IMG/VR virus record: IMGVR_UViG_3300035670_000009
Location: 139,911 to 203,910 of that record
Source: a virus
Taxonomy: Duplodnaviria; Caudoviricetes
Strand: one strand, 5' to 3'
Length of the DNA stretch: 64,000 nucleotides
Under the pieces are notes generated by a model. It ran no database searches. It was not told the DNA's origin and worked only from the letters and a program-made list of their open reading frames with translations. Made by a program: the position numbers and the translations under genes. How positions within the stretch are numbered: the first letter of the stretch is position 1; the number at the start of each line of letters is the position of its first letter. Shown piece by piece: positions 8,876 through 40,507 of the stretch.

Positions 8876-9019
8876 GAAAACCGTCCTTTGCTGCGTTTTC
8901 GCCCGTCATGCGGATTATTGCCAGCATACGCTTTGGCGGGTCGTACAGCCTAATTTTTGGCAGCCCTACCGAAATCTTTTTTGCGTTACTCATACAATAC
9001 CTAATTACACAAGAGCACG

Positions 9020-10330: not shown

Positions 10331-10363
10331 AGACGTTATTGTAGCTGGCCGCGCTGATAGCTA

Positions 10364-10400
10364 AGAAAAACGCTGCGCCCGCCCCGAAGGGCGGCGCGCG
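10364..10400 (-). terminator. Intrinsic terminator
   Basis: Minus strand GCGCCGCCC-TTCG-GGGCGGGCGC then AGCGTTTTTCTT. GC stem with a UUCG tetraloop and U-tract, downstream of 10421..10705. Confidence 0.65.
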
Positions 10401-10420
10401 AACGCTTTTCTGAATCACGA

Positions 10421-10989: not shown

Positions 10990-11176
10990 GACGTAGCCTC
11001 CTCAGCGGGCTACTGGGTAGCGCCCAGCGCGCAGCGGCTTTCCGATACAGCCGCCAATAGATATCTATTCCGCGCGTTTCACACGGTAGCGTGATACTAC
11101 CGCGCCGAAACACCGCAGGGAATGCGCTCCGGTGCAAAACCCTGGGCAATTAATATGCCCGCGTTTCCGGACTTTT

Positions 11177-15252: not shown

Positions 15253-16542
15253 TTACCGGTTGACGAGTTCCAGAACGTGCTGCTTCATGATGTCGCGCAG
15301 CTGACGCGACCGCTTGGTGCGTGCTTCCTTGACCTGGAACTTGCCGCTCCGCTTGAAGTTGATCACGGCCGCGCCGATCGCGTTCAGGTCGTTCACTGAA
15401 GCCATCTTGGGCGCCATCTCGGCGCCAGCCTCGGGGCCAGCGGGCGGCATGTCGCCTGCGCCGCCACCGCCCTGCAGGGCACCAATCAGAGCCTCGGGCG
15501 GAATGCCCAGCTCTTCAAGCGCCATGGCCAGCTCCTGAACCGCCTCGTCTTCTGACGGGGCGCCAGCGCCCTCGGCACCCATCGGCATTGCACCGGCGTC
15601 TTCGCCGCCCATCATGCCCTCGAGACCGGCGGATTCAGCGCCCATCTCTCCGGCCGGGCTTGCGCCGGACTCGTCGTCACCGGGAGCCGAGTGATCCTCG
15701 CCTTCCGCAGCCTCATCGCCCATGTCCGCAGCCGCGGCCTTTGAAGCGAGGAAGCCAATGAACAGGTCCGCCATCTCGTCGGCCTCGCGGAGCGTGTTTG
15801 CCGCAACTTCGCGCACGGACGCTTCAGCCGCCTCTTTGCTCATGCCGAGCGCCGCGGCCAGCTCGTAACCAGCTTTGAAAGCGGCTTCCTTGCCCTCGCG
15901 AAGAGCTGCGAGATCAGAACCCTCGATCTTGCCGTCGTTGTCAACGTCAAGTTTGTGCTGATCACCCTTCAGCTCCCCCTTCGGCGCGTCCTTCTTCTTT
16001 TCCTTGAGGAAGGCAGGCATCTCGGCGGACTTCTCTGCGCTGGCGTTGAGCAGCGTCGCGAGAATGTCGTTACCAAGCGCCGCGGCTCGGGTCATCGCTT
16101 CTTTGAAAGAAACCGACGAATACTTTTCGCCGTCGTTTGCCTTCGCGGGGTGCGAGGTGCCCGGGTCGTCCTTGTCGCCCTTGTAGTCGTGCTCGGCGGC
16201 CGGATCTTCGCCAGTGGCGGCAACGTTTGTGCCGATGTTCTGCTGGACTTCGTCCTGACGGCCCTCATAGGGAAGCTCGGGAGTGTTGTCCACTGCGAGC
16301 GCGCCCTGCTGCTTCTTGATGTCGGCTTCGTATTCCGACGCGCGCGAACCAGTCTCCGCCTTCTGCACGTTGTTGTCGACGTGCGCGGTGGGGTGCGTAG
16401 ACGCGCCCATGTAAGTGCCGGGGTCCGCCGGGGTGGGGCCGCCCTCCGCCTTTTTCTCGGCGGCTGTTTTCACAGCAGTGTGTGAAATCTCTTCGGCCAG
16501 GGCGTTAAGCTGCGCGAAAAGCGATCGTTGCATCCGTGCCAT
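15253..16542 (-). CDS. Probable scaffolding protein
   Basis: Acidic, Ala/Gly-rich, low complexity, with many K-x-A motifs. Lies between protease and capsid genes. Start reassigned to ATG 16542 (SD AAGGAG). Confidence 0.6.
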   Translation of the reverse strand: MARMQRSLFAQLNALAEEISHTAVKTAAEKKAEGGPTPADPGTYMGASTHPTAHVDNNVQKAETGSRASEYEADIKKQQGALAVDNTPELPYEGRQDEVQQNIGTNVAATGEDPAAEHDYKGDKDDPGTSHPAKANDGEKYSSVSFKEAMTRAAALGNDILATLLNASAEKSAEMPAFLKEKKKDAPKGELKGDQHKLDVDNDGKIEGSDLAALREGKEAAFKAGYELAAALGMSKEAAEASVREVAANTLREADEMADLFIGFLASKAAAADMGDEAAEGEDHSAPGDDESGASPAGEMGAESAGLEGMMGGEDAGAMPMGAEGAGAPSEDEAVQELAMALEELGIPPEALIGALQGGGGAGDMPPAGPEAGAEMAPKMASVNDLNAIGAAVINFKRSGKFQVKEARTKRSRQLRDIMKQHVLELVNR

Positions 16543-16587
16543 GTTCTTCTCCTTTAGGCTCCACACGCTCTAACGCGCGGACTCCAT

Positions 16588-21878: not shown

Positions 21879-24254
21879 TTAAGCGCTTGCGACATTGGAG
21901 AGGTCGGTGTCTGAGCCGCCTTCTTCTGGATACGGCTCAATCGTCTTTTGCTTGAGGAAGAGAATTACGTCGCCCAGCATTTCAAAGGCGTTACGCAACG
22001 AATCTTCCAGCTCTGGCATATCAGATTTGCCATAACGATCAGCGAACCGATCACCGTGCCAATAGAACATGAACAAAATGCGGCCCAGCTTGTCGAGGCC
22101 ATTGGTCAGCTCGCCCATATAACGATCGACCAACGAATCGTCCCGGACAGCGCGCAGCATCGAGCCGATCATCGCCGTGTCGAACACTTCTTTCTGGCCT
22201 GTCTCGGCGGCCTGCATCACGCTGCGGATATCTTTTTTGTCCAGTCGCGTGTTCGGGTTATAGATCTGCCGATCGGTGTTGGCGGCCGCCATGTCCGACA
22301 CCGGCATACCAATATCTATGCCCATTTGAGTTGGGACGTCGGCGCCCATGATTGTTTCGCCGCCCATCACCGGACCCGGATCGGTCGGCGCCGTTGGGCC
22401 CTGATTGACCATCATCGGCGCGCCGTACGGATTGGCATACTTCACGCGGCAAGCGAACTTCTTTTTTGCCGCCGCTGTCTTGAGGATCGCGCGAGCAGCG
22501 TCCTCACGCAGACCATGATGCTCAACAAGCGTCACCAGCGCGGCAATCGGGCTGCGCGCGGCTTCTTTGTTGATCGTGACTTCTGTGCCGTTGTGGTAGA
22601 CCTCGAGCGCGGCGGTCTTGCCTAGCAGTTCAAGCTGCGCGTCAGCCAGGTTGCCGGGCATCAGCGGCGGCATCTCGCTCTGGCCGCATCCGCACGCGCC
22701 CTGGTCCTCGGCCGTCTCATCGTCATCTTCGCCGGGAGCGCACTTGAGCAGCTTGTAGCCCTCGGGGACAAAAATGTCGCCCATCGAGCTGCGCAAACTG
22801 GAACCTTTCTTGCCGTTGAGATGGATCCGGACGCCGTCGCGCCACTTGTCGTAGTTCAGCGGGTCGGTATAGCAGCAGCTGGAGATGTGACCCTTTGGCG
22901 GAAACTTCGAATGGTCCTCCATGTGGACCTCGTAACTCGTCACGCCGAATTCGCTCTCGCCGTACTCGCGGATCACGCGAACCGGAACGGTGGCGTCGCC
23001 GTTCTTGTGCACCAACATGTAGCGCCCGCTCGACGGAAGGCTGTTTGCGTCTGGTAAGCCGTTAAACCACTCTTCTTCTTCCTTGTCGGTCGGGCAGGCG
23101 ACACAAAACACCTGGTCTGCGCGCGTGTTAATCCACTCAGGCTTGCCCTCGGTACGGACGACGGTGACAAAGTCCGAACGCTTCGCGGGCCCCATCGGGA
23201 ACATGGCGATGTAAACCCGCTCAATGTTGCCCGGCTTGACGAGGATGTCGTAAAGACCCGAGCTGGTCGGGTTCCAAAGTTTCTTTTCAACCTGAATGTG
23301 ATAGGGAATCGACACGTTGTCCCGCTCGCGCTGATCGAGAATCAGCACGCCGTCGCGGAGCAGCTTTTCCTGGTCTTCCTCGGTAGTCTCCGGCGGAAGC
23401 TTGGTCTGCATTGTGACGTTCATCGTGATGATCTTGAGCCCTGCGACGGCCGGGCTCTTTTCAGGTGCCTCCGACAGCACACTGGCGATCTTCGGGCGAT
23501 TTTCGCGTTCCTTGGCCGCCGCGATGGCTTCCTTGATCACGCCCAGGCCGTGAAACTCATCAAATGCCTTGGCCAGCGCCGGGGCGTCTTGGAACGTCTT
23601 GACGAGCATGTCGATCGTCGTGACGCGGGCTTCTTTAAGAAACCGCGGCAGATCTAACGCCCGGCCGATTTCCTGAAACACCAGCGCCGTGTTCATCGTG
23701 GCGCACTTAGCAAAAGTCGGCATCGCGGCCGTCATCATCTCGCGCAGCGTTGGCTTGGCCGAGCCAAACTTCGCCGGACTGCGAGAGAGCTGCGTGAAAT
23801 CGGGCTGCCGCTGGCCCATTGACGACCGATTGCGGTCCACCGCGCTGCCCAAAATGTTGGGCTTGCGGTTCACCAAGTAGTTAATCCAGTTTTCTTTAAG
23901 CGGCACGAACATGTCCTGGTTTTTGATGTACAGGAGTTCGTGACCTTTAAGGTCGCCGTTAAGAAAAAAGACTGGAGCATAAAGCCAATTCGAGCCAACT
24001 TTGAACGCAAAAACGCCAATAGCTTTGGTGTTTTCGCGATTGCGGTCTAGCAGCTGAAAACCGATTTCGTGGTCCAGCAGCCGCGGAGCTGAATCACGCA
24101 GATAGGCGTGCGCCAGGTTACTGAACGCCTGCTCAAACGACGTGGAGTCGCCTTTGCCGCCAAAATCGGCGGCTTTCGTTTGCGTCCGGTCGTGCAAACG
24201 TACTACGTTCAGCCAGTGCGCCTGGGACGATTCAGTCTTCTTGCGGTTGTACAC
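21879..24254 (-). CDS. Large conserved-type head protein with K-x-A motifs
   Basis: About 790 aa. Start reassigned to GTG 24254 (GGAGGT SD 7 nt upstream). Contains TKAAD, LKEAR, GKTAA, NKEAA and VKYAN. Confidence 0.65.
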   Translation of the reverse strand: MYNRKKTESSQAHWLNVVRLHDRTQTKAADFGGKGDSTSFEQAFSNLAHAYLRDSAPRLLDHEIGFQLLDRNRENTKAIGVFAFKVGSNWLYAPVFFLNGDLKGHELLYIKNQDMFVPLKENWINYLVNRKPNILGSAVDRNRSSMGQRQPDFTQLSRSPAKFGSAKPTLREMMTAAMPTFAKCATMNTALVFQEIGRALDLPRFLKEARVTTIDMLVKTFQDAPALAKAFDEFHGLGVIKEAIAAAKERENRPKIASVLSEAPEKSPAVAGLKIITMNVTMQTKLPPETTEEDQEKLLRDGVLILDQRERDNVSIPYHIQVEKKLWNPTSSGLYDILVKPGNIERVYIAMFPMGPAKRSDFVTVVRTEGKPEWINTRADQVFCVACPTDKEEEEWFNGLPDANSLPSSGRYMLVHKNGDATVPVRVIREYGESEFGVTSYEVHMEDHSKFPPKGHISSCCYTDPLNYDKWRDGVRIHLNGKKGSSLRSSMGDIFVPEGYKLLKCAPGEDDDETAEDQGACGCGQSEMPPLMPGNLADAQLELLGKTAALEVYHNGTEVTINKEAARSPIAALVTLVEHHGLREDAARAILKTAAAKKKFACRVKYANPYGAPMMVNQGPTAPTDPGPVMGGETIMGADVPTQMGIDIGMPVSDMAAANTDRQIYNPNTRLDKKDIRSVMQAAETGQKEVFDTAMIGSMLRAVRDDSLVDRYMGELTNGLDKLGRILFMFYWHGDRFADRYGKSDMPELEDSLRNAFEMLGDVILFLKQKTIEPYPEEGGSDTDLSNVASA

Positions 24255-24337
24255 AGCGGCCACCTCCGTGCGGCATTTTCAGGGCGTGTAAATAGCGATT
24301 TACCGCGCCGAGACCTCTACATCCTACAGAATCGGGC

Positions 24338-26212
24338 TTATGGGCGCCATCCGCTCGTTGCGCCAGTCATTCCAAAGGTTTCTCCGCGGGCCAGCCCTGG
24401 CACAAAGCTGCTGCCCGCGGTGTCGCTAGTTGCGCCCCGATGCACGCTGCTAAGCAGGCCGCGTTCTTGGTACGAGCCGAGCATACGCGTCATCCAGTCC
24501 GGGTCGTTCGAAATATTCGCCATGCCGCGAACCATTTCTGGCTGAAAAGGCGGCTGCTGCTTGTGCGCCTCGATATTGTTAATGCCGTATTTTTGCAGCG
24601 TATTAACGACGTTACGGCCAATTTTCGTGCCAATTGAATAGTGCAACACGGGCCGCTCCAAATAATGGCCCTGCAGGCTCTTGGGCGCGCCTGTCACACT
24701 GCCCGCGCGGGGTTGCCAATTTCGCTCGATCATCGAATATGGCACAACGTCGTCTGGGTTGTATTCGCCATGCTCGTCGGTCATACGGACGTGATTCACC
24801 AGCCCGCGCGCGAGCAGCTCGATGTTGCGGCGGTGGCCGTTGACGTTAGAGTTTTGAAGTACCTGCCGCATGGCTTGAACGAAATACCGGCGGCCCTCGC
24901 CGATGCCCTTGTGGCGCACCACTTCGGACGGATTAGGCATGCCGTCGGTGAGCGAGTCACCTGCCTCGATCTCCTGGCCCTTTTTGACGGTGATCTCGCG
25001 GTCCACCGGGATGTAGTGGTCCTGGCCGCCGACCTGGACGTAGTAACCGCCCTGGGGCGCCTCCTTGATCTCTTGGACGTGGCCGTCAACTTGGGCGTGC
25101 GTGGCGCCATTGGGGTATTTCTTGGGAACCTGGACCAACGCGTTGATCGCTTTGAAGCCGCCAATAGCGCTCGCGCCACCGACGCCGCCGGAATGTTTAG
25201 ACGAGATCTGCGCTTGGGTAACTGGTTCCGACAGAGCTTGCGCTGCGGCGATGCCAACGTAGTCGCCAATAGGCGGCATTTTGCCCTTCTCGCGATAGCC
25301 GACGTCTCTGGCGTACACGCCGCCGTCGTCTGGGCCGCCGACCAACGGACTGCGAACCAGCAGATCCTGCACGCCCATTCCTTTGATATCTTTCAAAATC
25401 TTCGGCGTCAGAACAGTATTGCGCTTGTATGGTCCGACGGGTCGGGCGAGCAGCGCGCCTTCGTTGTCCATGTCGTCGACGTCAGTGGGATAGCCGCGGT
25501 CGTGCGCGGTGGCATTGCGCTCCTGATCGTCGTCATCGTCGGCGGTGACGAGCAGCCGATGCGTCATTTGGCTGAGCTGCTTGCCGAAAAAACCCGCGTC
25601 CGCAGTAGCCGTCTTCAGGTCGAGCACGCCCTTGCGGGCGCCAAAGGCGCCCGCAAAATACTCTACGGGCCGTAAACCCTGGCCGTAGCCGCGCAGTACG
25701 GGAATAGGAATAGGCTCGTTTTTATGGTCGACGTACTGCAAGTCTGCGCCGATAAGTGAGTTGAGGCTGAACTTGTTTCCGCGGCTAACGCCGTGGACCT
25801 GGTGAGCCAGCGGGTTGTCCGTTGCCTTGGCTTCTTCGTAGACCTTTTCAACGAGGTCTTTTTGCGCGGTCGAGGCGAGCTGGAGCAGCTTGAGGTTACG
25901 CGTTTTCTCGTCGAGCGCGCGGTCGGCGAGAATGCCGCGGAGCTGCATCTGCACTTTGTGCTGCGCCTCCTTGGCGGCGACGGTCTGCTTGATGTCCTTC
26001 AGCCCGAACGAAAGACCACCCGCCGAATAAGACGTGTCGCGGGCCACGTCGTGAAGGTTCTTCATGACCTCCCGATACTTGTCGGGATGCTTTTCGGCGA
26101 GCTGCGTCGCGAGATTACCCATGTCTTTCTTAGTGAGGACGCGGTTGTAGTCGCGCAGATCTTCCGGCAGCGCTTCGTTAACGAGAATCTGGCCGAGTGT
26201 GGTTTTAAGCAT
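24338..26212 (-). CDS. rpoC: DNA-directed RNA polymerase, beta-prime C-terminal subunit
   Basis: Bridge helix YFAGAFGARKGVLDLKTATADAGFFGKQL and trigger loop AAQALSEPVTQAQISSKHSGG. N-terminus KTTLGQIL..SFGLKD matches the middle of bacterial RpoC. Confidence 0.93.
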   Translation of the reverse strand: MLKTTLGQILVNEALPEDLRDYNRVLTKKDMGNLATQLAEKHPDKYREVMKNLHDVARDTSYSAGGLSFGLKDIKQTVAAKEAQHKVQMQLRGILADRALDEKTRNLKLLQLASTAQKDLVEKVYEEAKATDNPLAHQVHGVSRGNKFSLNSLIGADLQYVDHKNEPIPIPVLRGYGQGLRPVEYFAGAFGARKGVLDLKTATADAGFFGKQLSQMTHRLLVTADDDDDQERNATAHDRGYPTDVDDMDNEGALLARPVGPYKRNTVLTPKILKDIKGMGVQDLLVRSPLVGGPDDGGVYARDVGYREKGKMPPIGDYVGIAAAQALSEPVTQAQISSKHSGGVGGASAIGGFKAINALVQVPKKYPNGATHAQVDGHVQEIKEAPQGGYYVQVGGQDHYIPVDREITVKKGQEIEAGDSLTDGMPNPSEVVRHKGIGEGRRYFVQAMRQVLQNSNVNGHRRNIELLARGLVNHVRMTDEHGEYNPDDVVPYSMIERNWQPRAGSVTGAPKSLQGHYLERPVLHYSIGTKIGRNVVNTLQKYGINNIEAHKQQPPFQPEMVRGMANISNDPDWMTRMLGSYQERGLLSSVHRGATSDTAGSSFVPGLARGETFGMTGATSGWRP

Positions 26213-26213
26213 C

Positions 26214-26453
26214 TCACGGCTTCCAGAGCATCTTGTCGATCGGCTTGGGTGTGAGGTCGTTGACCACTACAGTCTTATCAACGCCGAGAACGCGAAGAAG
26301 ATTATGAAAGTCGTCATCGCCAACGTGCGAGCAGATGATGTGATCGTCATGCTGCAGCGCCACGTAGATCGGGTTTCCCAGGTCATCTTCAACGATGACG
26401 CTGTGCGCCCGCTGCTCGTGTGGCTGCAGGTTGTGTTGCAGCTTAACGCGCAC
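26214..26453 (-). CDS. Small acidic/His-rich hypothetical protein between the RNAP genes
   Basis: 79 aa, tightly coupled to both neighbours (1-nt gap to the RNAP gene, short overlap upstream). Confidence 0.6.
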   Translation of the reverse strand: MRVKLQHNLQPHEQRAHSVIVEDDLGNPIYVALQHDDHIICSHVGDDDFHNLLRVLGVDKTVVVNDLTPKPIDKMLWKP

Positions 26454-27177
26454 GCTCGAGGCTCCTGAACAACGCCGCCACGGCCGCTGCCTTCAGCTGC
26501 GTCTCTGTCGGCGCGTCCGGGTTCTGCTCGGCAAATTGGGCCAGCGGTTTATCCCACCAATGCGCCATTTTTCCGGCCGACGGGTCCATCGGTGCCTGGC
26601 TCGGATCCATCGGCCCGCCCGGGGGCATCGGGCCGCCGGGGGGCTGCGGACCAGCTGGCGCGTTGGGGTCCTGGGGCGGCGGGGCCATCGGGCCGCCAGG
26701 TAATGCCGTCTCGGCAGGCGGCGCGCCGGTTGTGCCCGGCGGAAGAACGAGCGACTCGGGCGGAACCTGGACCCCCATCGCGTTCATAATTGCCGTTAGC
26801 TGCTGCTGCATGTTATAGAGCCGATAGTCAAGCATCTGCATCATCTGCTCGGGCTTGAGTTTTTGCTGGCCAGGAACTCCGCCCTGCGGCGTGGCAGGCG
26901 GCATCGGGGCCGGAGCGGCCGCGGGAGGAGCGGCAGCTGTTGCGGCGCCAGTCGGATCCTGCGAGGGGTCAATCGGCGCAGCGCCCATGGCGGCCGTGGC
27001 AGGATCGACGGGCTGCGCAGCGCCCTGAACGCCCAGCTGCGAAGGGTCGGGAGCTTCGCCGCCCATTGGAGGCGCGCCCTGAGCGGCCATCATGGCAGCA
27101 TCCGACGGCACGACCGCGGACTTCTCGAACGCGTGACGAGCCATCTTTAGCAGCTCGGGATTGACCGTGAAACTCAT
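26443..27177 (-). CDS. Pro/Ala/Gly-rich putative internal head protein
   Basis: FEKSAV near the N-terminus. Long disordered Pro-rich tracts around a short coiled coil (MMQMLDYRLYNMQQQLTAIM). Confidence 0.7.
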   Translation of the reverse strand: MSFTVNPELLKMARHAFEKSAVVPSDAAMMAAQGAPPMGGEAPDPSQLGVQGAAQPVDPATAAMGAAPIDPSQDPTGAATAAAPPAAAPAPMPPATPQGGVPGQQKLKPEQMMQMLDYRLYNMQQQLTAIMNAMGVQVPPESLVLPPGTTGAPPAETALPGGPMAPPPQDPNAPAGPQPPGGPMPPGGPMDPSQAPMDPSAGKMAHWWDKPLAQFAEQNPDAPTETQLKAAAVAALFRSLERAR

Positions 27178-27190
27178 GGGAACCTCCGTG

Positions 27191-30100
27191 TTAACTCTCG
27201 ACTATATGCACCGGGGTATCGACCTCAATCTCGCCTCGCCGATAGGCCTTAATGGCGTCCTGCCGTGACTTATATACCCGCGGCTTCGCGCGTTTGTCGA
27301 CCCGGCTGCTGGCCAGGTAAATCCCGGACTGAAACTCAGCCTGCGGAATATAGTGCGCTTTGAAGTTAGCCGCCGCAAACAAGTTTTTTGAGGGAAGCAT
27401 CTTTTCGACGGCTTCCTTTGCCGCGTCGTCCGTGCTAGGAACGTGATACTGCATCGCGTCCCCGTCGAAGTCGGCGTTAAAACCCTTGGTAATGACCGGA
27501 TTGACCTCCATCACCTTGTTCTTAGTGAGCTTTGGGTAGAAGGCCATCATACCGTATCGATGAAGCACCGGCGCACGGTTGATTACAATCGGCCGGGACG
27601 ACATCTGCCGCTCCAGCTCCGCGTGCGCCTCCTTGTTGCGGTCCTCGACGTGCTGGAGGGCCTGCATCCGCGGCAACCCCCGCCGCACCAAGCCGCGCAC
27701 CACGAACGGCTTGTAGACCTCCCAGGCTTTGTCCTCGGGCAGCGCCACCTCGTCCATGTCCAGGTCCGGGTTTGGCGTGATTACGGCGCGGCCCACCAGG
27801 TCGACCGTGGTGCCTAGAAGTTTGCGTTGAACGGTGCCGTACTTCGGCGAACTGCCGAAAATGTGCTTCAAGAATCCCTTGACCTGCCGCTCCTGATTCT
27901 TGGGCTGCGTCGGATCTCCCAGGCCAGAGACCGCCTTCATCGCGTCATACAGGCCGAGGCGCTCGTTGCCGTACTCCGCCAGGGCGCCGGAGGCGTCCTT
28001 CAGCGCGCTGTTTGAGTCGATCAACTCCTTGTACAGATAATTCGCGTCAGCCACGAGCGGGAGCTTCTTGGCGCCCATCGTCGAGACCGGCCGGAACAAC
28101 GGCGGCAAGACGGGCATCTTGGTGAGCATCCACTCCTGGGGATGAATTCCCTGGCTCTCGGCGGCCTTGAGAAAACCGAGCTTGCGCACGGCGGCGTCGC
28201 GGAGCGTTTTGCGGCCCGACTTAATGTCTTCTCGGCACTGTTCAATAGCCTTGGGAAGATTAATCCGGCCAAGCGCGTCTTTAATCGCGCTAGGACCCGA
28301 CTTGTCGAACAGCTGCGTCTCGCCCGCCAAGACAGAGCGAAACTGCTTTTCGGTAAGTCCCAAAACTCGACGAATTGGCTCTTCCATAACCGGATTGGGC
28401 ATCGGCTCGTGCAAAGATATCTTTGCCCAACGATTTCCGCCGTGTCCGCCGGTTAATTTCTCGTCGAATAGGCCGCCCGGAACTGGCTTCAATCGTCCTT
28501 TCCAGTCCACTGTTTCAGAACTGGTGATTTCTCGATCTTCAGCCAGCTGATCGACGTCTTTGTCGGCGATGGCCATGATGTGCGTTTTAGTACCGGTGCG
28601 GACAGTGTTAATGCCGCTGGCCCGCAATTGATTGACAAATTTCTCATAAACGTGCGGCACTTTGGGCAGCGGCGGCGTATAGCCCGACATGAACTGTGAC
28701 CAGTACTCGGGGTTGGCCTGCCCGCGGACCATCTTTGCGTCACGGATGACCTTTCCGGCGCCGTGGCTTAAAAGCGCGCCCAGGTCCAGCATGCCAACGC
28801 GCTTGGCGCCCTCCGAGCCGCCTTTAGCGGGAGTTCCTTCTGCCGTGTACGCGCCCATTGCGCGACCCTGCCCCTTAGACTCCGACGTGTGGTGAAGTTT
28901 CATAAAGAACCGGTGGCCGGTCAGCACGCCTTTGATCTTACGACCGGTCTCCGGATCAATGACGTCCTCAGTGTCGGAGAGGCCGTGCTTCCCAAGCTCG
29001 TTCTGCGCAAACGCAATGATGTCTTTTTCGCTGTCGAAGTCCTTTATCTTGAAAGGCTGTCCGGTTTTCGCGGCGACTTTACCCAGTGCAGCTTCGATAA
29101 CCTGAGAGGCATTTACGCGAGAGATCAGCCCCAGCGGCGAAACCAGAACCTCCATCGGGCTGCCGTCCTTGTCGTGCGGCATCTGGTGGTCCGGGACGAT
29201 GTCGGCAACAACGCCTTTGTCACCAAAACGCCCTGTAAGCTTGTCGCCCACCTGCATCTCGGCGGTGCTTTTCACGACGACCGACACGCCCTTATCAGTG
29301 TGCTCGACGTCAGTGACGATACCCGGCGAGTGATGATCCCAGGTGATCGTATCATTACTGAACGCGCCCGCGCGTCCGCGGTGAACTTTGCCGTAAGTGG
29401 TTTCCTTGGCTTTAGCCTGCAGCACCAGCGGGTCGCCGTAGTTGACTACGGTCCCCTTTTGAATAGCGCCCTTGTCGTCGAACTGGGCCAGCGTCTTCTT
29501 GTCGTACTCAGAGGGGAAGAGCGACACGAAAGCTTTCTTGCCAACGTGCGTGTTGTCGCTCCACTCAGCCTCGTGCTGGTACATGTGCTGGCTAGTGAGC
29601 TTCTTGGCCGCCGACTCCGAAATCACCACGGCATCTTCGTAGACCTTGCCCCTGAAAGGAAGGTAGCCAACGCGAAGGTTCTTGCCCAAAGCAGCTGAGC
29701 CCTGCTTGTCGGTGAAGTTCGAGTGCGCCAAAAGCTGCCCGGGCTTAATCGTGTCGCCCGGCTGCACAGCTGGCGTCTGGTGCCAAAAGGTCTTGCGGTT
29801 GAACGGCATGTCGTTGTAGAGATCGACTGTCGATTTGTTACCGTCTCGATCGCGGAGCACGATCTCGTCGGGCGACACGGAAACAACCTGGCCGTGGAAC
29901 TGGGCCTTCACGGCGCCAAGCTTTTCGCCCATCTCGTCTTCGTGGCTGATGCCGTCCTTGTCGACAACAGCCGACTGCACGAAGGGCGCTTCTGCGTCGT
30001 TCAAGGGCAGCGCTTGGGTAAACATGCGGCTGCCCATGATCGCGCGCTGGCCCTTAATCATGCTCTTGAGCGGCAGCATGTTCGAGAGCGCCGAGAAGGT

Positions 30101-31561
30101 GCTGTCCATGTGCGGCAGAGAATATTGAACCTCTTCCCGCGGCATGTACTTCATCTTGCCGCCCACGAGAGCCGCGACCATCGGCAGGTCGGTTTTCTCC
30201 TCGCCAGGAAACGCCACGGGCATGTCGGCCAGTTCGCCCGGCGTCTTGTATTCCTGCGCGCCGGTCTGCATGTTGCGCACCGGCGTATAGATCTTGCCGT
30301 CAGAACCCTTGACGGCGCCCCGCGCGAAGCGCATGTCGACGCCCGCTTTGCCCGACTCCGGCGTGCGCAGAAAATCGATGTAGCCAAGGTGGCTGGGCTG
30401 CACGGCGCGGGATTCCACCGGCACTGCGTCCAGCGAACCGATGCCGCCCTCGCCCATACGAGTCACGCGGTTCTGGTGGTCGAAGATTTCGGCCGGGTTA
30501 ATTTCTTCGAGCGAGCTGCCCAAGCCCGAGCCAATCAACGCAGCATTGATCGCCTTGTTGAAGAACCCCGTAGGCACGTGGTCAAGATTTTTCTTCGCCG
30601 TGGCCTTCCAAAGCAACTTGCGCAGCGCCTGCTTGTCTTTACTGAAGCGCTCAGCAATCAGGTCCTCGGGTCCGACAACGCTTTGATATGCCATTGCGTC
30701 GCGGTCGTCTGGATCGGCCTCTTTGCGATTAACGGCAATGAGCTTTTTCGTAATGTCGAGAATCGCTTCGGGGGTAAGGTTCTTGTATTCCTTGCCAAGA
30801 GTGCGCCGCGTAACGTCGGGGTCGAGTTCCATGCGGGCAAACTCTGTCGCAATAGCTTGCTGCTTAGCGGCCGCGTCCAATCCCGGAGTTTGCTTGTAAA
30901 CAAGTCGCTGGTAGAGCTTGTCGAGAGTGCCCGCGTCGCCCTTCTCCATGTTGACGGCGGTGATCTCGTTGCCCCAAGCGCCGCGGATATCGGCATCTTT
31001 GGCGCCGAGCGCTTTGAGCAGCGGCATCAGCGGAATCTGGGCCTGGCCAATGTTAATTTTCATCACGCCGGTCTTCGGGTCGAGGAAGTACCGGTGCATG
31101 CGTCCCTTGCCGGGCAGCACGTTAACGTGCGCCTCCAGCTCGCCGTTGTCTTTCTCGCGCGTGTAGACGCCCGCCTTGAGCCGCATCTGGTGGGCCAGGG
31201 TGTACTCGACGCCCCGGTTCACAAACGTGCCCGAGTCAGTGAGGTACGGCACGTGCGCAATCGTCTGCTGACGTTTGGCGATCGGCTGCCCGGTGGCGTT
31301 GTCGATTAAATTCCAAGTGCCGGTGAGCCGCCGGTGCAACGAGTTTCCGGTAAGAACGGCCCGTTTTTGATCGCGCTTGTTGTAGCGCTCCGGCCCCGTG
31401 TAATTCACGTCCGAAAGTTGGAGCGTGTAGAGATCGTTTTTGATCGGCTCGATCGCGCTGGCGCTTTGGAGCGCGCGATCAAAAATGCCGGAACGCAGCG
31501 CGTGGATGTCACCAAATGCGCGGTGTTGCGGCGGCGTTTGCCCGAGAATCGAGTCTGGCAT
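27191..31561 (-). CDS. rpoB: DNA-directed RNA polymerase, beta subunit fused to beta-prime N-terminal half
   Basis: Beta motifs: TDSGTFV, HQNRVTRMGEGG, RTPESG, QRAIMGSRM, YEDAVVISE, GDKLTGRFGDKGVV, MKLHH. Beta-prime motifs follow: PVLPPLFRP, GRAVI, NRAPVLHR and catalytic GFNADFDGD. Confidence 0.96.
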   Translation of the reverse strand: MPDSILGQTPPQHRAFGDIHALRSGIFDRALQSASAIEPIKNDLYTLQLSDVNYTGPERYNKRDQKRAVLTGNSLHRRLTGTWNLIDNATGQPIAKRQQTIAHVPYLTDSGTFVNRGVEYTLAHQMRLKAGVYTREKDNGELEAHVNVLPGKGRMHRYFLDPKTGVMKINIGQAQIPLMPLLKALGAKDADIRGAWGNEITAVNMEKGDAGTLDKLYQRLVYKQTPGLDAAAKQQAIATEFARMELDPDVTRRTLGKEYKNLTPEAILDITKKLIAVNRKEADPDDRDAMAYQSVVGPEDLIAERFSKDKQALRKLLWKATAKKNLDHVPTGFFNKAINAALIGSGLGSSLEEINPAEIFDHQNRVTRMGEGGIGSLDAVPVESRAVQPSHLGYIDFLRTPESGKAGVDMRFARGAVKGSDGKIYTPVRNMQTGAQEYKTPGELADMPVAFPGEEKTDLPMVAALVGGKMKYMPREEVQYSLPHMDSTFSALSNMLPLKSMIKGQRAIMGSRMFTQALPLNDAEAPFVQSAVVDKDGISHEDEMGEKLGAVKAQFHGQVVSVSPDEIVLRDRDGNKSTVDLYNDMPFNRKTFWHQTPAVQPGDTIKPGQLLAHSNFTDKQGSAALGKNLRVGYLPFRGKVYEDAVVISESAAKKLTSQHMYQHEAEWSDNTHVGKKAFVSLFPSEYDKKTLAQFDDKGAIQKGTVVNYGDPLVLQAKAKETTYGKVHRGRAGAFSNDTITWDHHSPGIVTDVEHTDKGVSVVVKSTAEMQVGDKLTGRFGDKGVVADIVPDHQMPHDKDGSPMEVLVSPLGLISRVNASQVIEAALGKVAAKTGQPFKIKDFDSEKDIIAFAQNELGKHGLSDTEDVIDPETGRKIKGVLTGHRFFMKLHHTSESKGQGRAMGAYTAEGTPAKGGSEGAKRVGMLDLGALLSHGAGKVIRDAKMVRGQANPEYWSQFMSGYTPPLPKVPHVYEKFVNQLRASGINTVRTGTKTHIMAIADKDVDQLAEDREITSSETVDWKGRLKPVPGGLFDEKLTGGHGGNRWAKISLHEPMPNPVMEEPIRRVLGLTEKQFRSVLAGETQLFDKSGPSAIKDALGRINLPKAIEQCREDIKSGRKTLRDAAVRKLGFLKAAESQGIHPQEWMLTKMPVLPPLFRPVSTMGAKKLPLVADANYLYKELIDSNSALKDASGALAEYGNERLGLYDAMKAVSGLGDPTQPKNQERQVKGFLKHIFGSSPKYGTVQRKLLGTTVDLVGRAVITPNPDLDMDEVALPEDKAWEVYKPFVVRGLVRRGLPRMQALQHVEDRNKEAHAELERQMSSRPIVINRAPVLHRYGMMAFYPKLTKNKVMEVNPVITKGFNADFDGDAMQYHVPSTDDAAKEAVEKMLPSKNLFAAANFKAHYIPQAEFQSGIYLASSRVDKRAKPRVYKSRQDAIKAYRRGEIEVDTPVHIVES

Positions 31562-31566
31562 TGCGC

Positions 31567-32775
31567 TTACTCATCGGACTCAACAGTCGATTTGATATGC
31601 GCGAGCGACTCCGGGTCGACCCACACGGGCGGCAAGCCCTTTGTCCGCGCGCGGGACGCCTGCGCCTTAGCCAGGTTCTCGCCTTCGGTGAGATTCTTGG
31701 TGCGGTCGTACATGTATTTGGCGCCAAGCCCGCCAGCGCCCAGCAGCGTAAGCAAGTAAGCAGTCCGCAAAGTTTGCGGCGTGTTCCACAAAGCGCTGGC
31801 CGTACTCGAGAGCATGTTGGCTTGCTTGACGCGATCAAAAGCGACGTCGAGGGCGCTCGCGGACTTCCCGCCCAGCGCGTTGTAATACTCGGCACGCGCG
31901 GCTTCGAGCGCGGATTCGCGATCGCGTTTCTTCTTGGCCTTCACGAGCGAATTAATGAGCTTCGCGCCTGCATAGGTACCCAACGCCGCGCCACCGATGT
32001 TGGCGGCCGTGCTCCAGCTTTTTCGCCACGGGTGCGGGTCAGCAGACGGCGCCGGACCGCGGCCTGGTACGTTCGGGGCGCCGAACGGCACCATCGTCGT
32101 GGGGAGCGCCTTGCCAACCGATTCTGAAAGGCTGTTCAGGTCGAAACTGTTCTTAATCGCGAACGGGTTATTCGCGGTCGAGAACGGGCCCTGGTTGTTG
32201 TTCGGCATGCCATTTACGAAACCAAACGGCTGCGGCGCGGCAGGAACAATATTTTTGTTAATGCCGGGGTTCATCTGCTGCTGCGGGGCGAATGAATTAG
32301 CCGCGCTCGTTGTCTCGAACGGTCGTGCGGCCTGCATGGCCTGTCCGACACGTGCGTACATACTCCCAGAGGAGAACGGAATTTTTGTGAGAGACTGCAT
32401 AAAAGGCACATATTGCCGCATGCTTTCGGGATTAAAGCCGCCAAACGGGCCATTTTGGGCGGGTCGATTCTGCGGCATAATTCCGGAACCACCGACAAGC
32501 GACATGTCGAGCGGGCGACTGGGGTCATATCTGAGATTGGCTTCCTTGGCGATCATCGGCGTACCCGAGCCATAGCTCGGGTACTTTTTTTCCTTTTTGC
32601 CTTCGGGTTTCATACCGCGAAGCAAGTGGTACAGCGCCGCAGCGCCGAGACCAATACCGGCACCGGCTCCCGTGCTCGACAGGAGCCGCTTGCCGTAAAA
32701 CTGCTGCAAAAGCTGCTCGCGCTCAGCAGCAGACGGGCCACCAAAGATTCCAGCGAGCTTTTCAGTGTTGTTCAT
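31567..32775 (-). CDS. Gly-rich putative internal head/ejection protein with hydrophobic segments
   Basis: Start reassigned to ATG 32775 (ATGA overlap). Motifs TEKLAG, AKEAN, GKSAS and VKQAN. Three glycine-zipper hydrophobic stretches. Confidence 0.65.
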   Translation of the reverse strand: MNNTEKLAGIFGGPSAAEREQLLQQFYGKRLLSSTGAGAGIGLGAAALYHLLRGMKPEGKKEKKYPSYGSGTPMIAKEANLRYDPSRPLDMSLVGGSGIMPQNRPAQNGPFGGFNPESMRQYVPFMQSLTKIPFSSGSMYARVGQAMQAARPFETTSAANSFAPQQQMNPGINKNIVPAAPQPFGFVNGMPNNNQGPFSTANNPFAIKNSFDLNSLSESVGKALPTTMVPFGAPNVPGRGPAPSADPHPWRKSWSTAANIGGAALGTYAGAKLINSLVKAKKKRDRESALEAARAEYYNALGGKSASALDVAFDRVKQANMLSSTASALWNTPQTLRTAYLLTLLGAGGLGAKYMYDRTKNLTEGENLAKAQASRARTKGLPPVWVDPESLAHIKSTVESDE

Positions 32776-33128
32776 GACGTTGCCTTCGGCGGAATCATCC
32801 CGTAAACCTGGGCCCATTCCAGCCATACGCGGTAGTGCTTGTTTTCTTCGTCATAGACGTCTGCCCGCTTCAGCAGGCGATACCAACCGTTCACTATCTT
32901 ATCATTTATGTCGTCAAACTCGGCTTTTGCCTCGGGTTCCCAGAGTAGGAACATCTTCGAGCGGTAGTCGTAGCGCAGCTCGAGGTTTTCCAGCTCATCC
33001 TGTTTGAGATTGGCCGTCGCGCTCTGCGGGCCGATGACGGGAAAGCCGTCCAGCGTGCCCGGCCAGCTCAGGCGCTCTCCGCTGTGCTGCGGGCCGCCCA
33101 TTTCTGCGTGAAACTTGCGCAAACTCAT
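32772..33128 (-). CDS. Hypothetical protein
   Basis: 118-aa globular-looking ORF coupled to its neighbours. Confidence 0.7.
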   Translation of the reverse strand: MSLRKFHAEMGGPQHSGERLSWPGTLDGFPVIGPQSATANLKQDELENLELRYDYRSKMFLLWEPEAKAEFDDINDKIVNGWYRLLKRADVYDEENKHYRVWLEWAQVYGMIPPKATS

Positions 33129-39373: not shown

Positions 39374-40507
39374 TTATTTCCTTCCGGGGGAGAACTGCGC
39401 CAGCACGTCGTCGCCGTAACGAGCGATGACCTGGTCAATGAGGTTGGGGCGCTCCGTCTGGCCGCGAATGGCTTTCAGTGCAAGCTGGTGCCGATAGCGC
39501 GGGTCAAGCTGCGCCCGCCACATTTTGTGATTTCGATCGCTGTCGCGGATGAAGTCGCCCCGACGCTTGGCCTCGGTGAGCTGGCTCTTGATGTTCTCGA
39601 AAACCGGCTTGCTGGGGTCGTAAGGAATCGGCTTCTGGATAGCGAGCGGGTCAAGCATCTGTCGCCCCTGATCGAGGTAGACGCTGCCGCCGTCCTTCTC
39701 TAGTTGCTGGATTTTTTTGTAGTAGGCCGGTTCTTCGGACAAGTGATCCTTGGCAATTTCTTTGGCGACTTCTGCATTGTTCGTGTGTTCGCGCTCATGC
39801 TTCTTGCCTTCTGCCAAGGCCTCCGGTGGAAACTGCTCATCGGGCACATGATCCGCCTGGCCGCCGGGCAAGACGTCCAGGACTTTTTCAGCCGCCGCCT
39901 TCAGCTCGCCCCGGCTGGTGGCCGAGTCAAACTTGCTAACGTTGTTGTTACCGAGCACCTTCGCGCGTCGGACAGCCACCGTGATGTGGAACTGATGATC
40001 GCCATTGGGCAGAGCTGACAAACCGTAGCTCTTACGCAAAGCGGCCAACTCTGGGCTGGCGACTTGAATCGCCCAGACGCGGCTGATGCCGTCGATGTTC
40101 TTAGGCGCGAGTTCTTTAACGGGACCAAGGGCGTAGTGAAAATTGTGCCCGCGCTCGTTGATCTTGTTCGCGCCAATTTTGCTGACCTCGTCAGCGGTCA
40201 TCACCGAAATGTGCGCATTCAGCAAATCTGGCTTTACGTCTGGAACGTTAAGGGCACCAGCAAGTGGTAATTCAGCGCCTGGAGCAGTCATGGCGTCGAA
40301 TACGCCGCGCACCAGGGCATTTGGGACCGACAGCAACAGCCAGCCGCTTTTAGAGACGTACAGCCGCCCGGCGAGATAGTGATTGGTCGTCGCCGCGGCA
40401 CCGGTCTTTGAAAGCCAACCGGCCGCGTTTCCAACGGCATAGGCCGGATGAAGCTTGAAACCGGTCGCGTCCCACGCCAAAGGATCGAGAATGGAAAACC
40501 CGTCCAT
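39374..40507 (-). CDS. 2H phosphoesterase fused to an EHT..DHL..YY domain
   Basis: Two H-x-(S/T) motifs (NAHISV, QFHITV) with intervening SPELAALRKSYGL. Then EGKKHEREHTNNAEVAKEIAKDHLSEEPAYYKKI. Confidence 0.75.
   Translation of the reverse strand: MDGFSILDPLAWDATGFKLHPAYAVGNAAGWLSKTGAAATTNHYLAGRLYVSKSGWLLLSVPNALVRGVFDAMTAPGAELPLAGALNVPDVKPDLLNAHISVMTADEVSKIGANKINERGHNFHYALGPVKELAPKNIDGISRVWAIQVASPELAALRKSYGLSALPNGDHQFHITVAVRRAKVLGNNNVSKFDSATSRGELKAAAEKVLDVLPGGQADHVPDEQFPPEALAEGKKHEREHTNNAEVAKEIAKDHLSEEPAYYKKIQQLEKDGGSVYLDQGRQMLDPLAIQKPIPYDPSKPVFENIKSQLTEAKRRGDFIRDSDRNHKMWRAQLDPRYRHQLALKAIRGQTERPNLIDQVIARYGDDVLAQFSPGRK

What the first reader, a model, noticed from the sequence alone, without database searches (positions are those of the whole stretch)
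24338..31561. Streamlined cellular-type RNA polymerase with an unusual beta/beta-prime-N fusion and separate beta-prime-C, embedded in the head module
Seen: 27191..31561 runs through all beta motifs directly into beta-prime up to just past NADFDGD. 24338..26212 supplies the bridge helix and trigger loop. The total of 2080 aa is much shorter than bacterial RpoB+RpoC, and no alpha, omega or sigma gene is recognisable in the window. Both genes are flanked by K-x-A head proteins. Established: phiKZ-like RNAPs are far more diverged and split differently, while metagenomic phages with recognisably cell-like multisubunit RNAPs have been reported (the mReC lineage). Inference: this is a member or relative of that group, and the enzyme is virion-packaged and assembles without alpha.
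Basis: partly seen in the sequence, partly recalled or inferred. Interest (0 to 1): 0.75.

Follow-up and report, generated by a model that had tools for sequence, protein, structure and literature searches.

The report
Two-chain, zinc-free phage RNA polymerase
A complete 204-kb uncultured aquatic phage encodes its only RNA polymerase as two proteins (all of beta joined to the front of beta-prime, and the rest of beta-prime separately) with almost no cysteine or zinc sites. The layout is shared by hundreds of related phages and by Salmonella phage Arash, where the enzyme is found in virus particles.

Summary
Window 27191-31561 (-) is one 1456-aa ORF with a complete beta joined seamlessly to beta-prime up to 88 residues past NADFDGD. 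Window 24338-26212 (-) is a 624-aa beta-prime-C with the bridge helix and trigger loop.

- **Not a recent host capture.** Bacteria are monophyletic (99/99) and exclude it, and the best bacterial identity is 29-32%.
- **Not an mReC member.** mReC-type enzymes form a separate clade, have unfused genes in beta-prime-then-beta order, and mReC capsids are T4-type.
- **Where it belongs.** It sits in a fully supported fusion clade. Cultured members are Salmonella phage Arash and Vibrio phage D69, and the sister group is a single-chain beta-beta-prime lineage.
- **Sigma exists.** The gene lies 6.8 kb before the window and is the ortholog of Arash gp10.
- **No alpha or omega** gene is detectable in the complete genome.

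Virion packaging is inferred, not shown. In Arash virions the polymerase, sigma and the partner SNF2 helicase give strong mass-spectrometry signals. In this genome the same proteins are essentially cysteine-free, and both beta-prime zinc sites are gone.

This scan has already reported the same family on other genomes. I found no paper that describes the layout.

The parts
27191..31561 (-). Gene for the fused beta + beta-prime-N chain (1456 aa, P0001)
   Evidence: Open frame. Pfam Rpb2_6 and Rpb1_2 lie in one ORF. It aligns to bacterial beta and then beta-prime 142-529. The same fusion is present in all 150 distant representatives.
28586..31561 (-). Beta module (about residues 1-992), with the fork loop at 30434-30472 and the second-barrel lysine motif at 29207-29248
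   Evidence: PDB alignment. The map against Salmonella RpoB shows only the lineage-specific inserts 226-343, 378-406, 938-1049 and 1124-1177 missing.
28556..28615 (-). Seamless beta to beta-prime junction (residues 983-1002): the beta C-terminal block runs into the equivalent of the beta-prime N-terminus with almost no linker
   Evidence: Reading of P0001 against Acinetobacter and Salmonella RpoB/RpoC.
27194..28585 (-). Beta-prime-N module (about residues 993-1456), with clamp helices at 28100-28201
28403..28474 (-). Site where the beta-prime Cys4 zinc-binding domain (E. coli 68-99) is deleted
   Evidence: Alignments A1 and cmap. The deletion is shared by the window family, Arash, D69 and the single-chain locus L095.
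27458..27478 (-). Catalytic NADFDGD loop (residues 1362-1368)
   Evidence: Most relatives read GADFDGD.
26443..27177 (-). Conserved 244-aa Pro/Ala/Gln-rich protein (P0004) between the two polymerase genes; function unknown
   Evidence: Present at 44-85% identity in every close relative whose held locus reaches that far, in the same position. No Pfam or PHROG family.
26214..26453 (-). Conserved 79-aa protein (P0003), one base upstream of beta-prime-C; small beta-sheet domain, function unknown
   Evidence: Orthologs at 31-65% identity. AlphaFold2 pLDDT 83.5, five strands plus one helix. No PDB fold match.
24338..26212 (-). Gene for beta-prime-C (624 aa, P0002)
   Evidence: Pfam Rpb1_5. Aligns to beta-prime from Streptomyces residue 659. 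Orthologs at 51-83% identity.
25553..25657 (-). Bridge helix (P0002 residues 186-220)
   Evidence: Alignment to Streptomyces beta-prime. Coordinates.
25175..25255 (-). Trigger loop (P0002 residues 320-346). The His is kept, Met/Arg/Phe are replaced by Ile/Ser/Lys, and there is no SI3 insert
25292..25546 (-). Former second zinc site of beta-prime (E. coli C814, C888, C895, C898): all four Cys replaced, the first within a poly-Asp tract
   Evidence: Alignment. The site is kept in Arash, D69 and L095 and lost in the window and L042.
21879..24263 (-). 794-aa downstream neighbour, a weak homolog of Arash gp218 (a virion protein by mass spectrometry)
   Evidence: tblastn 24% identity over 196 aa, E = 4e-5; phmmer 1e-10. 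Arash table.
31567..32826 (-). 419-aa upstream neighbour: cysteine-free, Gly/Ala-rich hydrophobic segments, no known family
   Evidence: Position conserved in relatives.

Best explanation
The two genes encode the catalytic core of the phage's only RNA polymerase, a minimal bacterial-type enzyme made of two chains. Chain 1 is a complete beta joined, almost without a linker, to the N-terminal 460 residues of beta-prime (clamp, clamp helices, catalytic barrel). Chain 2 is the remainder of beta-prime (bridge helix, trigger loop, region H).

Shown: the enzyme belongs to an old, very large viral lineage in which beta and beta-prime are fused. One branch keeps a single chain of about 2000-2200 aa. 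The branch holding this phage, Salmonella phage Arash and Vibrio phage D69 has beta-prime cut about 90 residues after the catalytic loop.

Inferred from the retained clamp helices and flap region, and from a conserved phage sigma-70-family protein (ortholog of Arash gp10): promoter recognition is sigma-dependent.

Inferred from the absence of alpha and omega genes, the covalent beta/beta-prime link, and the loss of both zinc sites: the core assembles without alpha, omega or zinc.

Inferred from Arash virion proteomics, the position of the genes in the virion-structural block, and the near-total lack of cysteine shared with sigma, the SNF2 helicase and the putative tape-measure protein: polymerase, sigma and helicase are packed into the particle and delivered with the DNA to start transcription independently of the host enzyme.
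For: Architecture.

Family size. At least 120 clusters at 74-95% identity sit on contigs of about 200 kb. All 150 best representatives at 42-58% identity show either the fusion ending at the same residue or, in truncated entries, the beta part alone; none holds beta-prime-C. 44 IMG/VR loci share the same gene order.

Cultured relatives. Arash gp206 (1525 aa) plus gp216 (606 aa), and D69.

Trees. Bacteria 99/99, fusion clade 100/100, split branch 95/86, single-chain branch 98/97. The beta tree agrees that Bacteria exclude the fusion clade and that Arash/D69 are sister to the window family.

No close bacterial copy exists in 185,579 species genomes; the best is 32%. There is only one polymerase set in the genome.

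Sigma. Sigma70_r3 scores 35.5 bits, above the cut-off, and r4 is weak. phmmer to Arash gp10 gives 5.6e-19, and it matches PHROG 351.

No alpha or omega, with controls ringing in all 14 control genomes (13 for the alpha C-terminal domain).

Arash virion mass spectrometry. gp206: 128 unique peptides, 3516 spectra. gp216: 40 and 1210. Helicase gp217: 38 and 1148. Sigma gp10: 24 and 467. Portal: 32 and 877. Several metabolic enzymes have only 2-3 unique peptides.

Cysteine. There is 1 Cys in 2080 residues, and 0 in sigma. The SNF2 helicase has 1 in 952, the 1372-aa putative tape measure 0, and the 419-aa neighbour 0. Most other proteins of 250 aa or more, including portal, terminase and sheath, have about 0.7-2.5%. 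108 of 112 close homologs have no Cys.

Zinc sites are lost. Synteny with the Arash structural block.
Against: No proteomic, transcriptomic or biochemical data exist for this phage, and no RNA sequencing run holding it was listed. The Arash particle preparation also yielded ribonucleotide reductases, RNA ligases and kinases, so carry-over of abundant cytoplasmic proteins is possible. Its spectral counts are not stoichiometric. Cysteine depletion is a correlate whose meaning I infer; a few unrelated proteins in the genome are also Cys-free. Use of host alpha or omega cannot be excluded from sequence. Only one sigma was detected, so how a single enzyme would run early and late programmes is open. 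A crude k-mer search of intergenic regions found no obvious promoter motif.
Confidence: 0.62

Rival explanations
1. The polymerase is real but is not carried in the virion. It is made during infection, like a non-virion middle/late enzyme, and host RNA polymerase transcribes the early genes. Its presence in Arash particle preparations is carry-over of an abundant protein.
For: The Arash list of 116 'virion' proteins includes clearly cytoplasmic enzymes such as ribonucleotide reductases, kinases and RNA ligases. gp206 has more spectra than the major capsid protein, which cannot reflect copy number. There are no data for this phage itself.
Against: The unique-peptide counts of gp206, gp216, gp217 and sigma gp10 equal or exceed the portal's, while several of the likely contaminants have 2-3. 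The genes lie in the structural block in three distant lineages. The same four proteins are selectively cysteine-free here, together with the putative tape-measure protein. There is only one polymerase set.
Confidence: 0.25
2. It is a member of the mReC lineage of Weinheimer and Aylward (2020).
For: Both are phage-encoded, recognisably cell-like polymerases that branch outside Bacteria. A sister relationship is not rejected (AU p = 0.34).
Against: mReC-type sequences form their own clade (99/98), separate from the fusion clade (100/100). Their beta and beta-prime are separate genes, in the order beta-prime then beta. None of the mReC rows I read is fused. The Gp23-type capsid reported for mReC is absent from this complete genome, from Arash and from D69, while the control phage RHph_Y65 rings. 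phmmer scores to mReC-type beta-prime (94-96 bits) are lower than to Pseudomonas beta-prime (168 bits).
Confidence: 0.05
3. It is a recent capture of host rpoB-rpoC, later trimmed and rearranged.
For: The beta then beta-prime order matches the bacterial operon. Bacterial beta and beta-prime are the best PDB matches.
Against: Identity to the best 80 of 599 bacterial hits is a flat 29-32% across many phyla. Bacteria are monophyletic without it in all three trees. The clade spans more than 150 clusters at 50% identity with the layout conserved.
Confidence: 0.03
4. The two chains form only part of the enzyme. Host alpha (and omega), or phage proteins such as the 79-aa and 244-aa products encoded between the genes, are needed as assembly subunits.
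For: Naturally fused beta-beta-prime enzymes of Helicobacter still use alpha (my own knowledge, not tested here). The two intervening genes keep their position in every close relative whose held locus reaches that far. The 79-aa gene abuts the beta-prime-C start and folds confidently.
Against: The intervening genes are not detectable in the 55%-identity relative L042, nor in Arash or D69 at sequence level. phiKZ-type enzymes work without alpha. The 79-aa fold is not omega-like.
Confidence: 0.3

Closest known systems
Salmonella phage Arash gp206 + gp216, with sigma gp10 and SNF2 helicase gp217 (OQ632216; PMC10585845); also Vibrio phages D69, D148, D181
   Same: Same fusion of beta to beta-prime-N and the same split point. 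The zinc-binding domain is deleted in the same way. Sigma and helicase have orthologs here. The genes sit at the start of the structural block. They are sister clades in the beta and beta-prime trees.
   Different: Only 32% identity. Arash and D69 keep the second beta-prime zinc site and a few cysteines. In them the portal gene lies just upstream and the helicase just downstream, whereas here both are elsewhere in the genome. Arash has a second sigma, gp196, which has no match here. The paper annotates the genes as beta and beta-prime and does not describe the fusion.
Single-chain beta-beta-prime polymerases of uncultured phages (IMG/VR loci L095 2021 aa, L143 2078 aa, L149 2161 aa, L097 2213 aa)
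   Same: Same beta to beta-prime junction and zinc-domain deletion (zinc-domain deletion checked in L095 only). 28-37% identity. They are the sister branch within the 100/100 fusion clade.
   Different: Beta-prime is not split. The second zinc site is kept (checked in L095). I found no publication on them.
mReC (Weinheimer and Aylward 2020, PMC7481178)
   Same: Phage-encoded and cell-like, and it branches outside Bacteria. Some members are jumbo phages.
   Different: Separate beta and beta-prime genes, in the order beta-prime then beta. Sometimes two sets per genome. T4-type capsid. A separate clade. Many cysteines (19-20 in beta-prime, 8 in L093).
phiKZ / AR9-type jumbo-phage multisubunit polymerases
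   Same: No alpha or omega. Beta-prime is cut shortly after the catalytic loop. One set is virion-packaged. They are associated with a Swi2/Snf2 helicase.
   Different: Those enzymes are far more diverged (12-30 bits against 168 bits for bacterial beta-prime). Their beta is split rather than fused. They have two paralogous sets. They lack a sigma-70 homolog and use gp68 or gp226 instead.
Cyanobacterial and plastid rpoC1/rpoC2 split, and Helicobacter/Wolbachia rpoB-rpoC fusion
   Same: The beta-prime split maps to E. coli residues 551-568, against 587 for the Melainabacteria rpoC1/rpoC2 split in locus L202. The end-to-end beta to beta-prime fusion resembles the Helicobacter one (my own knowledge).
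   Different: Cellular enzymes keep alpha, omega and both zinc sites. No cellular enzyme I know combines the fusion with the split.
Virion RNA polymerases of other kinds: N4 vRNAP, crAss-like gp66, Thermus phage P23-45 tape-measure-fused polymerase (PMC10770324)
   Same: The proposed role is the same: delivery with the genome to transcribe early genes.
   Different: Those are single-subunit T7-like enzymes or highly diverged two-barrel enzymes without sigma. The enzyme here is close to the bacterial core and has a sigma.

Membership tests
Arash-type fused/split phage RNA polymerase | Complete beta and beta-prime-N in one reading frame | tested here: met
Arash-type fused/split phage RNA polymerase | Beta-prime cut at the same site as gp206/gp216, about 90 residues after the catalytic loop | tested here: met
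   In alignment A1 the C-termini coincide. The split maps to E. coli 551-568 in both.
Arash-type fused/split phage RNA polymerase | Groups with Arash and D69 in phylogeny | tested here: met
   Beta tree 96. Beta-prime careful tree 95/86.
Arash-type fused/split phage RNA polymerase | Companion sigma (gp10 ortholog) and SNF2 helicase (gp217 ortholog) in the genome | tested here: met
   Sigma. Helicase.
Arash-type fused/split phage RNA polymerase | Polymerase present in virions | not testable with these tools
   Known only for Arash. Cysteine depletion here is indirect.
mReC (PMC7481178) | Falls in the mReC clade of the RNA polymerase tree | tested here: not met
   mReC-type loci form a separate 99/98 clade. 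I identified those loci by subunit lengths and adjacency matching the paper's table, not by name. A sister relationship is unresolved (AU p = 0.34).
mReC (PMC7481178) | Separate beta and beta-prime genes of about 1000-1380 and 900-1010 aa | tested here: not met
mReC (PMC7481178) | Gp23-type major capsid protein (PF07068) | tested here: not met
   No match in the complete genome. The positive control RHph_Y65 scores 59 bits.
phiKZ/AR9-type jumbo-phage polymerases | Beta split into two or three chains; two paralogous sets (virion and non-virion) | tested here: not met
   Beta is intact and fused, and there is one set only.
phiKZ/AR9-type jumbo-phage polymerases | No sigma-70 homolog | tested here: not met
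   A sigma-70-family gene is present.
Bacterial RNA polymerase core (alpha2-beta-beta-prime-omega) | Conserved beta and beta-prime catalytic motifs, bridge helix, trigger loop | tested here: met
Bacterial RNA polymerase core (alpha2-beta-beta-prime-omega) | Alpha and omega subunits encoded | tested here: not met
   PF01000, PF01193, PF03118 and PF01192 all give no match at E <= 1, with the controls ringing. Divergent analogs cannot be excluded.
Bacterial RNA polymerase core (alpha2-beta-beta-prime-omega) | Two beta-prime zinc sites | tested here: not met
   Site I is deleted and all four Cys of site II are replaced.
Bacterial RNA polymerase core (alpha2-beta-beta-prime-omega) | Branches within Bacteria | tested here: not met
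   Bacteria are monophyletic without it: 99, 100 and 99/99.

The most novel reading that the evidence does not exclude
The family is a self-sufficient, virion-delivered minimal holoenzyme of two chains plus a phage sigma. It assembles without alpha, omega or zinc. It is kept free of cysteine because it must pass, at least partly unfolded, through the tail and the oxidising periplasm together with a RapA-like helicase. It descends from a single-chain beta-beta-prime ancestor that was later cut in beta-prime. If so, it would be the simplest known bacterial-type multisubunit polymerase and a new route to host-independent early transcription.
Probability: 0.4. Interest if true: 0.8.

Novelty: new variant of a known kind. 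Interest (0 to 1): 0.62.

Why it matters
A two-chain, zinc-free and cysteine-free bacterial-type polymerase with its own sigma would be a compact model for several questions. How is a multisubunit polymerase assembled without alpha and omega? What do the zinc sites contribute? How can so large an enzyme be packed into and delivered from a capsid? The family is very large and widespread in aquatic metagenomes. It has cultured members, Arash and the Vibrio phages, so these questions are directly testable. It is a further phage lineage of cell-like polymerases beside the phiKZ type and mReC, and its branching outside Bacteria bears on the debate about how old viral polymerases are. It could also be useful as a small orthogonal transcription module.

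Tried and rejected
- **Complex prediction.** Complex prediction of the 79-aa protein with beta-prime-C returned no verdict (score 0.00). I do not use it either way.
- **Fold of the 79-aa protein.** Foldseek of its model against the PDB found nothing at E <= 0.001. The fold is five strands and a helix, so an omega-like reading was dropped.
- **Neighbours.** Pfam and PHROGs on the flanking proteins and on the cysteine-free proteins near sigma found no families.
- **Promoters.** A crude 7-mer enrichment search of 88 intergenic gaps found only a ribosome-binding-site-like word and TTTCACA (7 gaps), with no convincing promoter. I did not re-examine the genome-wide palindrome.
- **Expression.** No RNA holder was listed for the stretch, and I did not use read laying.
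- **Misreading corrected.** I first took sheet 2 of the mReC Supplementary Data 2 for the mReC list. Its table of contents shows it lists contigs that did not cluster with mReC. The true rows are in sheet 1. I read part 10 and the start of part 9 of that sheet, not every row.
- **Not mReC after all.** 'Long' beta-prime ORFs of 1400-1550 aa from IMG/VR, which I first suspected to be mReC, cluster with giant-virus MAGs.
- **Split inteins.** These were considered for the beta-prime cut and rejected. Both ends align directly to contiguous bacterial beta-prime sequence with no spare residues.
- **Near-identical phage records.** The megablast search of phage records found none.

Full report
**Setting.** The window is bases 139911-203910 of a complete IMG/VR phage genome of 203,910 bp (CheckV completeness 100%). 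The genome has direct terminal repeats (73 bp exact), 57.7% G+C, and nearly all genes on the minus strand. Near-identical DNA occurs in subsurface, freshwater, aquatic and 'marine'-labelled metagenomes from four studies beside the probable source study.

Window 27191-31561 (-) is an uninterrupted 1456-aa frame, and 24338-26212 (-) a 624-aa frame.
- Pfam places Rpb2 domain 6 (residues 555-906, 168 bits) and Rpb1 domain 2 (1311-1386, 92 bits) in the first protein. It places Rpb1 domain 5 in the second.
- Against PDB sequences, residues 82-1009 align to bacterial beta and residues 1061-1453 to E. coli beta-prime 142-529. The second protein aligns from its residue 2 to Streptomyces beta-prime 659-1167.
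- The beta C-terminal block runs into the equivalent of the beta-prime N-terminus with hardly any linker (residues 983-1002).
- NADFDGD is at 1362-1368, and 88 residues follow it.
- The bridge helix and trigger loop are in the second protein. The trigger-loop His is kept, and Met/Arg/Phe are replaced by Ile/Ser/Lys.

**Why it is short.** I mapped the enzyme on Salmonella (that is, E. coli) numbering.
- It lacks beta 226-343, 378-406, 938-1049 and 1124-1177.
- It lacks beta-prime 68-99, 143-173, 944-1132 and the C-terminal tail.
- From my own knowledge, most of these are the proteobacterial lineage-specific inserts (SI1, SI2, the 1122-1180 insert, SI3).
- The exception is beta-prime 68-99, the Cys4 zinc-binding domain.
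- The second zinc site has also lost all four cysteines, the first within a poly-Asp tract.
- The whole 2080-residue enzyme has one cysteine.

**Family.**
- The fused protein has at least 120 cluster representatives at 74-95% identity, many on contigs of 197-213 kb. It occurs in 44 IMG/VR loci.
- In an exhaustive search with the beta part, the 150 best 50%-identity representatives (42-58% identity) show either beta plus beta-prime-N ending at the same residue or, in truncated entries, the beta part alone. None contains beta-prime-C.
- Many carry one to six inserts of about 150-500 aa at recurrent conserved sites, one directly after the catalytic loop. Two of the four inserts tested have intein-splicing plus LAGLIDADG domains, a third has LAGLIDADG only, and the fourth has no Pfam match. 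The window copy has none.
- The gene order 118 aa, 419 aa, beta/beta-prime-N, 244 aa, 79 aa, beta-prime-C, 794 aa is kept in every close relative whose held locus reaches that far.

**Cultured relatives.** Salmonella phage Arash (gp206 of 1525 aa, gp216 of 606 aa) and Vibrio phages D69, D148 and D181 have the same fusion and the same cut, at 32% identity. Synteny extends to the proteins that follow. The window's 794-aa protein matches gp218, the 485-aa protein matches gp222, and the sheath matches gp236. All three are virion proteins by mass spectrometry in Arash.

**Wider relatives.** I scanned IMG/VR for the catalytic-loop codons.
- Some phage lineages have one frame of 2021-2213 aa holding beta, beta-prime-N and beta-prime-C (L095, L143, L149, L097; 28-37% identity).
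- Others have compact beta-prime genes of 903-1010 aa, three of the four directly followed by a beta gene of about 1010-1023 aa where complete.
- The compact ones match the subunit lengths and adjacency of the 'Metagenomic phage' (mReC) rows in the paper's dataset.

**Phylogeny.** I built a careful beta-prime tree of 34 taxa under LG+C20+F+G4, rooted on giant-virus sequences.
- Bacteria: 99/99.
- Fusion clade: 100/100.
- Within the fusion clade, the split branch (window family plus Arash and D69) has 95/86, and the single-chain branch 98/97.
- mReC-type clade: 99/98.
- The order among Bacteria, the fusion clade (with the T4-like Rhizobium phage RHph_Y65 weakly attached, 88/89) and the mReC type is unresolved.
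- Holding the fusion and mReC-type clades together is not rejected (AU p = 0.34).
- The beta tree and a 70-taxon quick beta-prime tree agree that Bacteria exclude the fusion clade and that Arash/D69 are sister to the window family. In these two trees the single-chain lineages are basal or only weakly grouped rather than a supported sister clade. phiKZ-like sequences lie far away.
- In 185,579 species genomes, the best 80 of 599 bacterial hits are ordinary rpoC genes at 29-32% identity from many phyla.

The enzyme is therefore neither a recent capture nor an mReC member. It belongs to a distinct viral lineage. Whether the single chain or the split form is ancestral cannot be decided from sister clades alone.

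**Accessory subunits.**
- The complete genome has no match to alpha (PF01000, PF01193, PF03118) or omega (PF01192) at E <= 1. All 14 control genomes ring for three of these families and 13 for PF03118.
- It does have a 270-aa sigma-70-family protein at genome 132270-133082. Sigma70_r3 scores 35.5 bits, above the cut-off; r4 is weak; it matches PHROG 351.
- That protein is the ortholog of Arash gp10 (phmmer 5.6e-19). It lies four genes downstream of a 1372-aa protein in the tape-measure position. In Arash, gp10 lies two genes after the 1165-aa gp8.
- The beta-prime clamp helices are retained, and the beta flap region is not among the deletions. Sigma docking is therefore plausible, but this is an inference.
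- Only one polymerase set exists.

**Is it packaged?** Direct evidence exists only for Arash:

| Arash protein | Sequence coverage | Unique peptides | Spectra |
|---|---|---|---|
| gp206 (beta/beta-prime-N) | 100% | 128 | 3516 (the most detected) |
| gp216 (beta-prime-C) | 89% | 40 | 1210 |
| gp217 (helicase) | 100% | 38 | 1148 |
| gp10 (sigma) | 100% | 24 | 467 |
| gp204 (portal) | 93% | 32 | 877 |

Several metabolic enzymes in the same list have only 2-3 unique peptides. The authors themselves leave carry-over open.

In this genome I found an independent correlate in the cysteine counts.
- Essentially cysteine-free: the polymerase chains (1 in 1456, 0 in 624), sigma (0 in 270), the SNF2 helicase orthologous to gp217 (1 in 952), the putative tape measure (0 in 1372) and the 419-aa neighbour (0).
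- Ordinary cysteine content: portal (1.4%), terminase (2.0%), sheath (0.85%) and most other proteins of 250 aa or more, which have about 0.7-2.5%, with some tail-region proteins at 5-8%.
- 108 of 112 intein-free close homologs of the fused chain have no cysteine.

I read this as a mark of proteins that leave the capsid through the tail. That is an inference.

**The two genes between the subunits.** Both are real, conserved genes of unknown role.
- The 79-aa product folds confidently into a small sheet domain (pLDDT 83.5). It has no PDB neighbour.
- Neither gene is detectable in the 55%-identity relative L042; the 56% relative L033 keeps only a weak (31%) 79-aa match and no 244-aa match. Arash and D69 proteins near the RNAP genes that I tested found no match in this genome.

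**Split point.** The cut maps to E. coli beta-prime 551-568. A Melainabacteria rpoC1/rpoC2 split maps to 587. phiKZ-like beta-prime-N frames end 54-101 residues after the catalytic loop, against 88 here. The beta-prime cut therefore falls in the same inter-domain region used repeatedly in evolution.

**Literature.** The Arash paper annotates the two genes as beta and beta-prime without noting the fusion. Two jumbo-phage overviews (2021 and 2026) and the mReC paper do not describe this layout. Targeted searches found nothing further.

**Earlier notes of this scan.** Notes on other genomes report the same fused/split family, the single-chain form and the cysteine-free rule. I reached these points before reading them, and they agree with my results.

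**Verdict.** The enzyme is a member of a large, essentially undescribed Arash-type fusion lineage rather than mReC. Sigma-dependent initiation, alpha-independent assembly and virion delivery are the most likely workings, in decreasing order of support.

Noticed in passing
relatives P0125-P0274 (for example P0134 1370-1870, P0131 600-1030, P0158 of 3350 aa); close relatives P0005, L025-L027, L031: The fused polymerase gene of many relatives carries one to six inserts of about 150-500 aa at recurrent conserved sites (beta 403, 591, 776, 816, 895, 919; beta-prime-N 227/233, and directly after the catalytic loop). Of four inserts tested, two have intein-splicing plus LAGLIDADG domains, one has LAGLIDADG only and one has no Pfam match. 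The window copy has none.
   Followed up: partly
genome 136122-140240 (window 1-330 holds its start), 132270-133082, 8376-11234; window 31567-32826, 15253-16566, 39374-40507: A distinct set of large proteins is free or nearly free of cysteine: the putative tape measure (1372 aa), sigma, the SNF2 helicase, and proteins of 419, 437 and 377 aa. Most other proteins have about 0.7-2.5%, and three tail-fibre-region proteins have 5.6-7.8%.
   Followed up: partly
window 26443-27177: A 244-aa Pro/Ala/Gly/Gln-rich low-complexity protein with conserved N- and C-terminal ends is kept between the polymerase genes in every close relative whose locus reaches it. It has no family and no known function.
   Followed up: partly
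window 31567-32826: The 419-aa protein just upstream of the polymerase gene has three Gly/Ala-rich hydrophobic stretches that look membrane-active, and no cysteine. It could be an ejection or pore protein.
   Followed up: no
Vibrio phages D181 and D148 (hits H3, H4): In these cultured phages the fused polymerase gene is matched in two pieces, with an annotated homing endonuclease and several 'hypothetical' fragments under the match. The gene seems to be interrupted by a mobile element.
   Followed up: no
L117, L130, L297, L092: mReC-type loci have beta-prime directly followed by beta, the reverse of the bacterial operon order. Their beta-prime holds 19-20 cysteines.
   Followed up: partly
L065, L071, L105, L113, L059, L129, L052: IMG/VR contigs not labelled as giant-virus MAGs (57-218 kb) carry beta-prime-like genes of 1400-1550 aa that cluster tightly with giant-virus MAG sequences.
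   Followed up: no
L192 (Vicinamibacterales MAG): The stop-to-stop frame around the rpoC catalytic loop is 2697 aa long, about twice a normal beta-prime. I left it out of the trees and did not examine it.
   Followed up: no
family-wide (P0005-P0274): Most family members read GADFDGD rather than NADFDGD (124 against 37 of those scored), and some read DYDGD or DHDGD.
   Followed up: no
genome 8376-11234: The phage's 952-aa SNF2-family helicase is the ortholog of Arash gp217, which lies directly after beta-prime-C and is in virions. A Swi2/Snf2 helicase linked to polymerase genes is also described for phiKZ-type phages (PMC7824862).
   Followed up: partly
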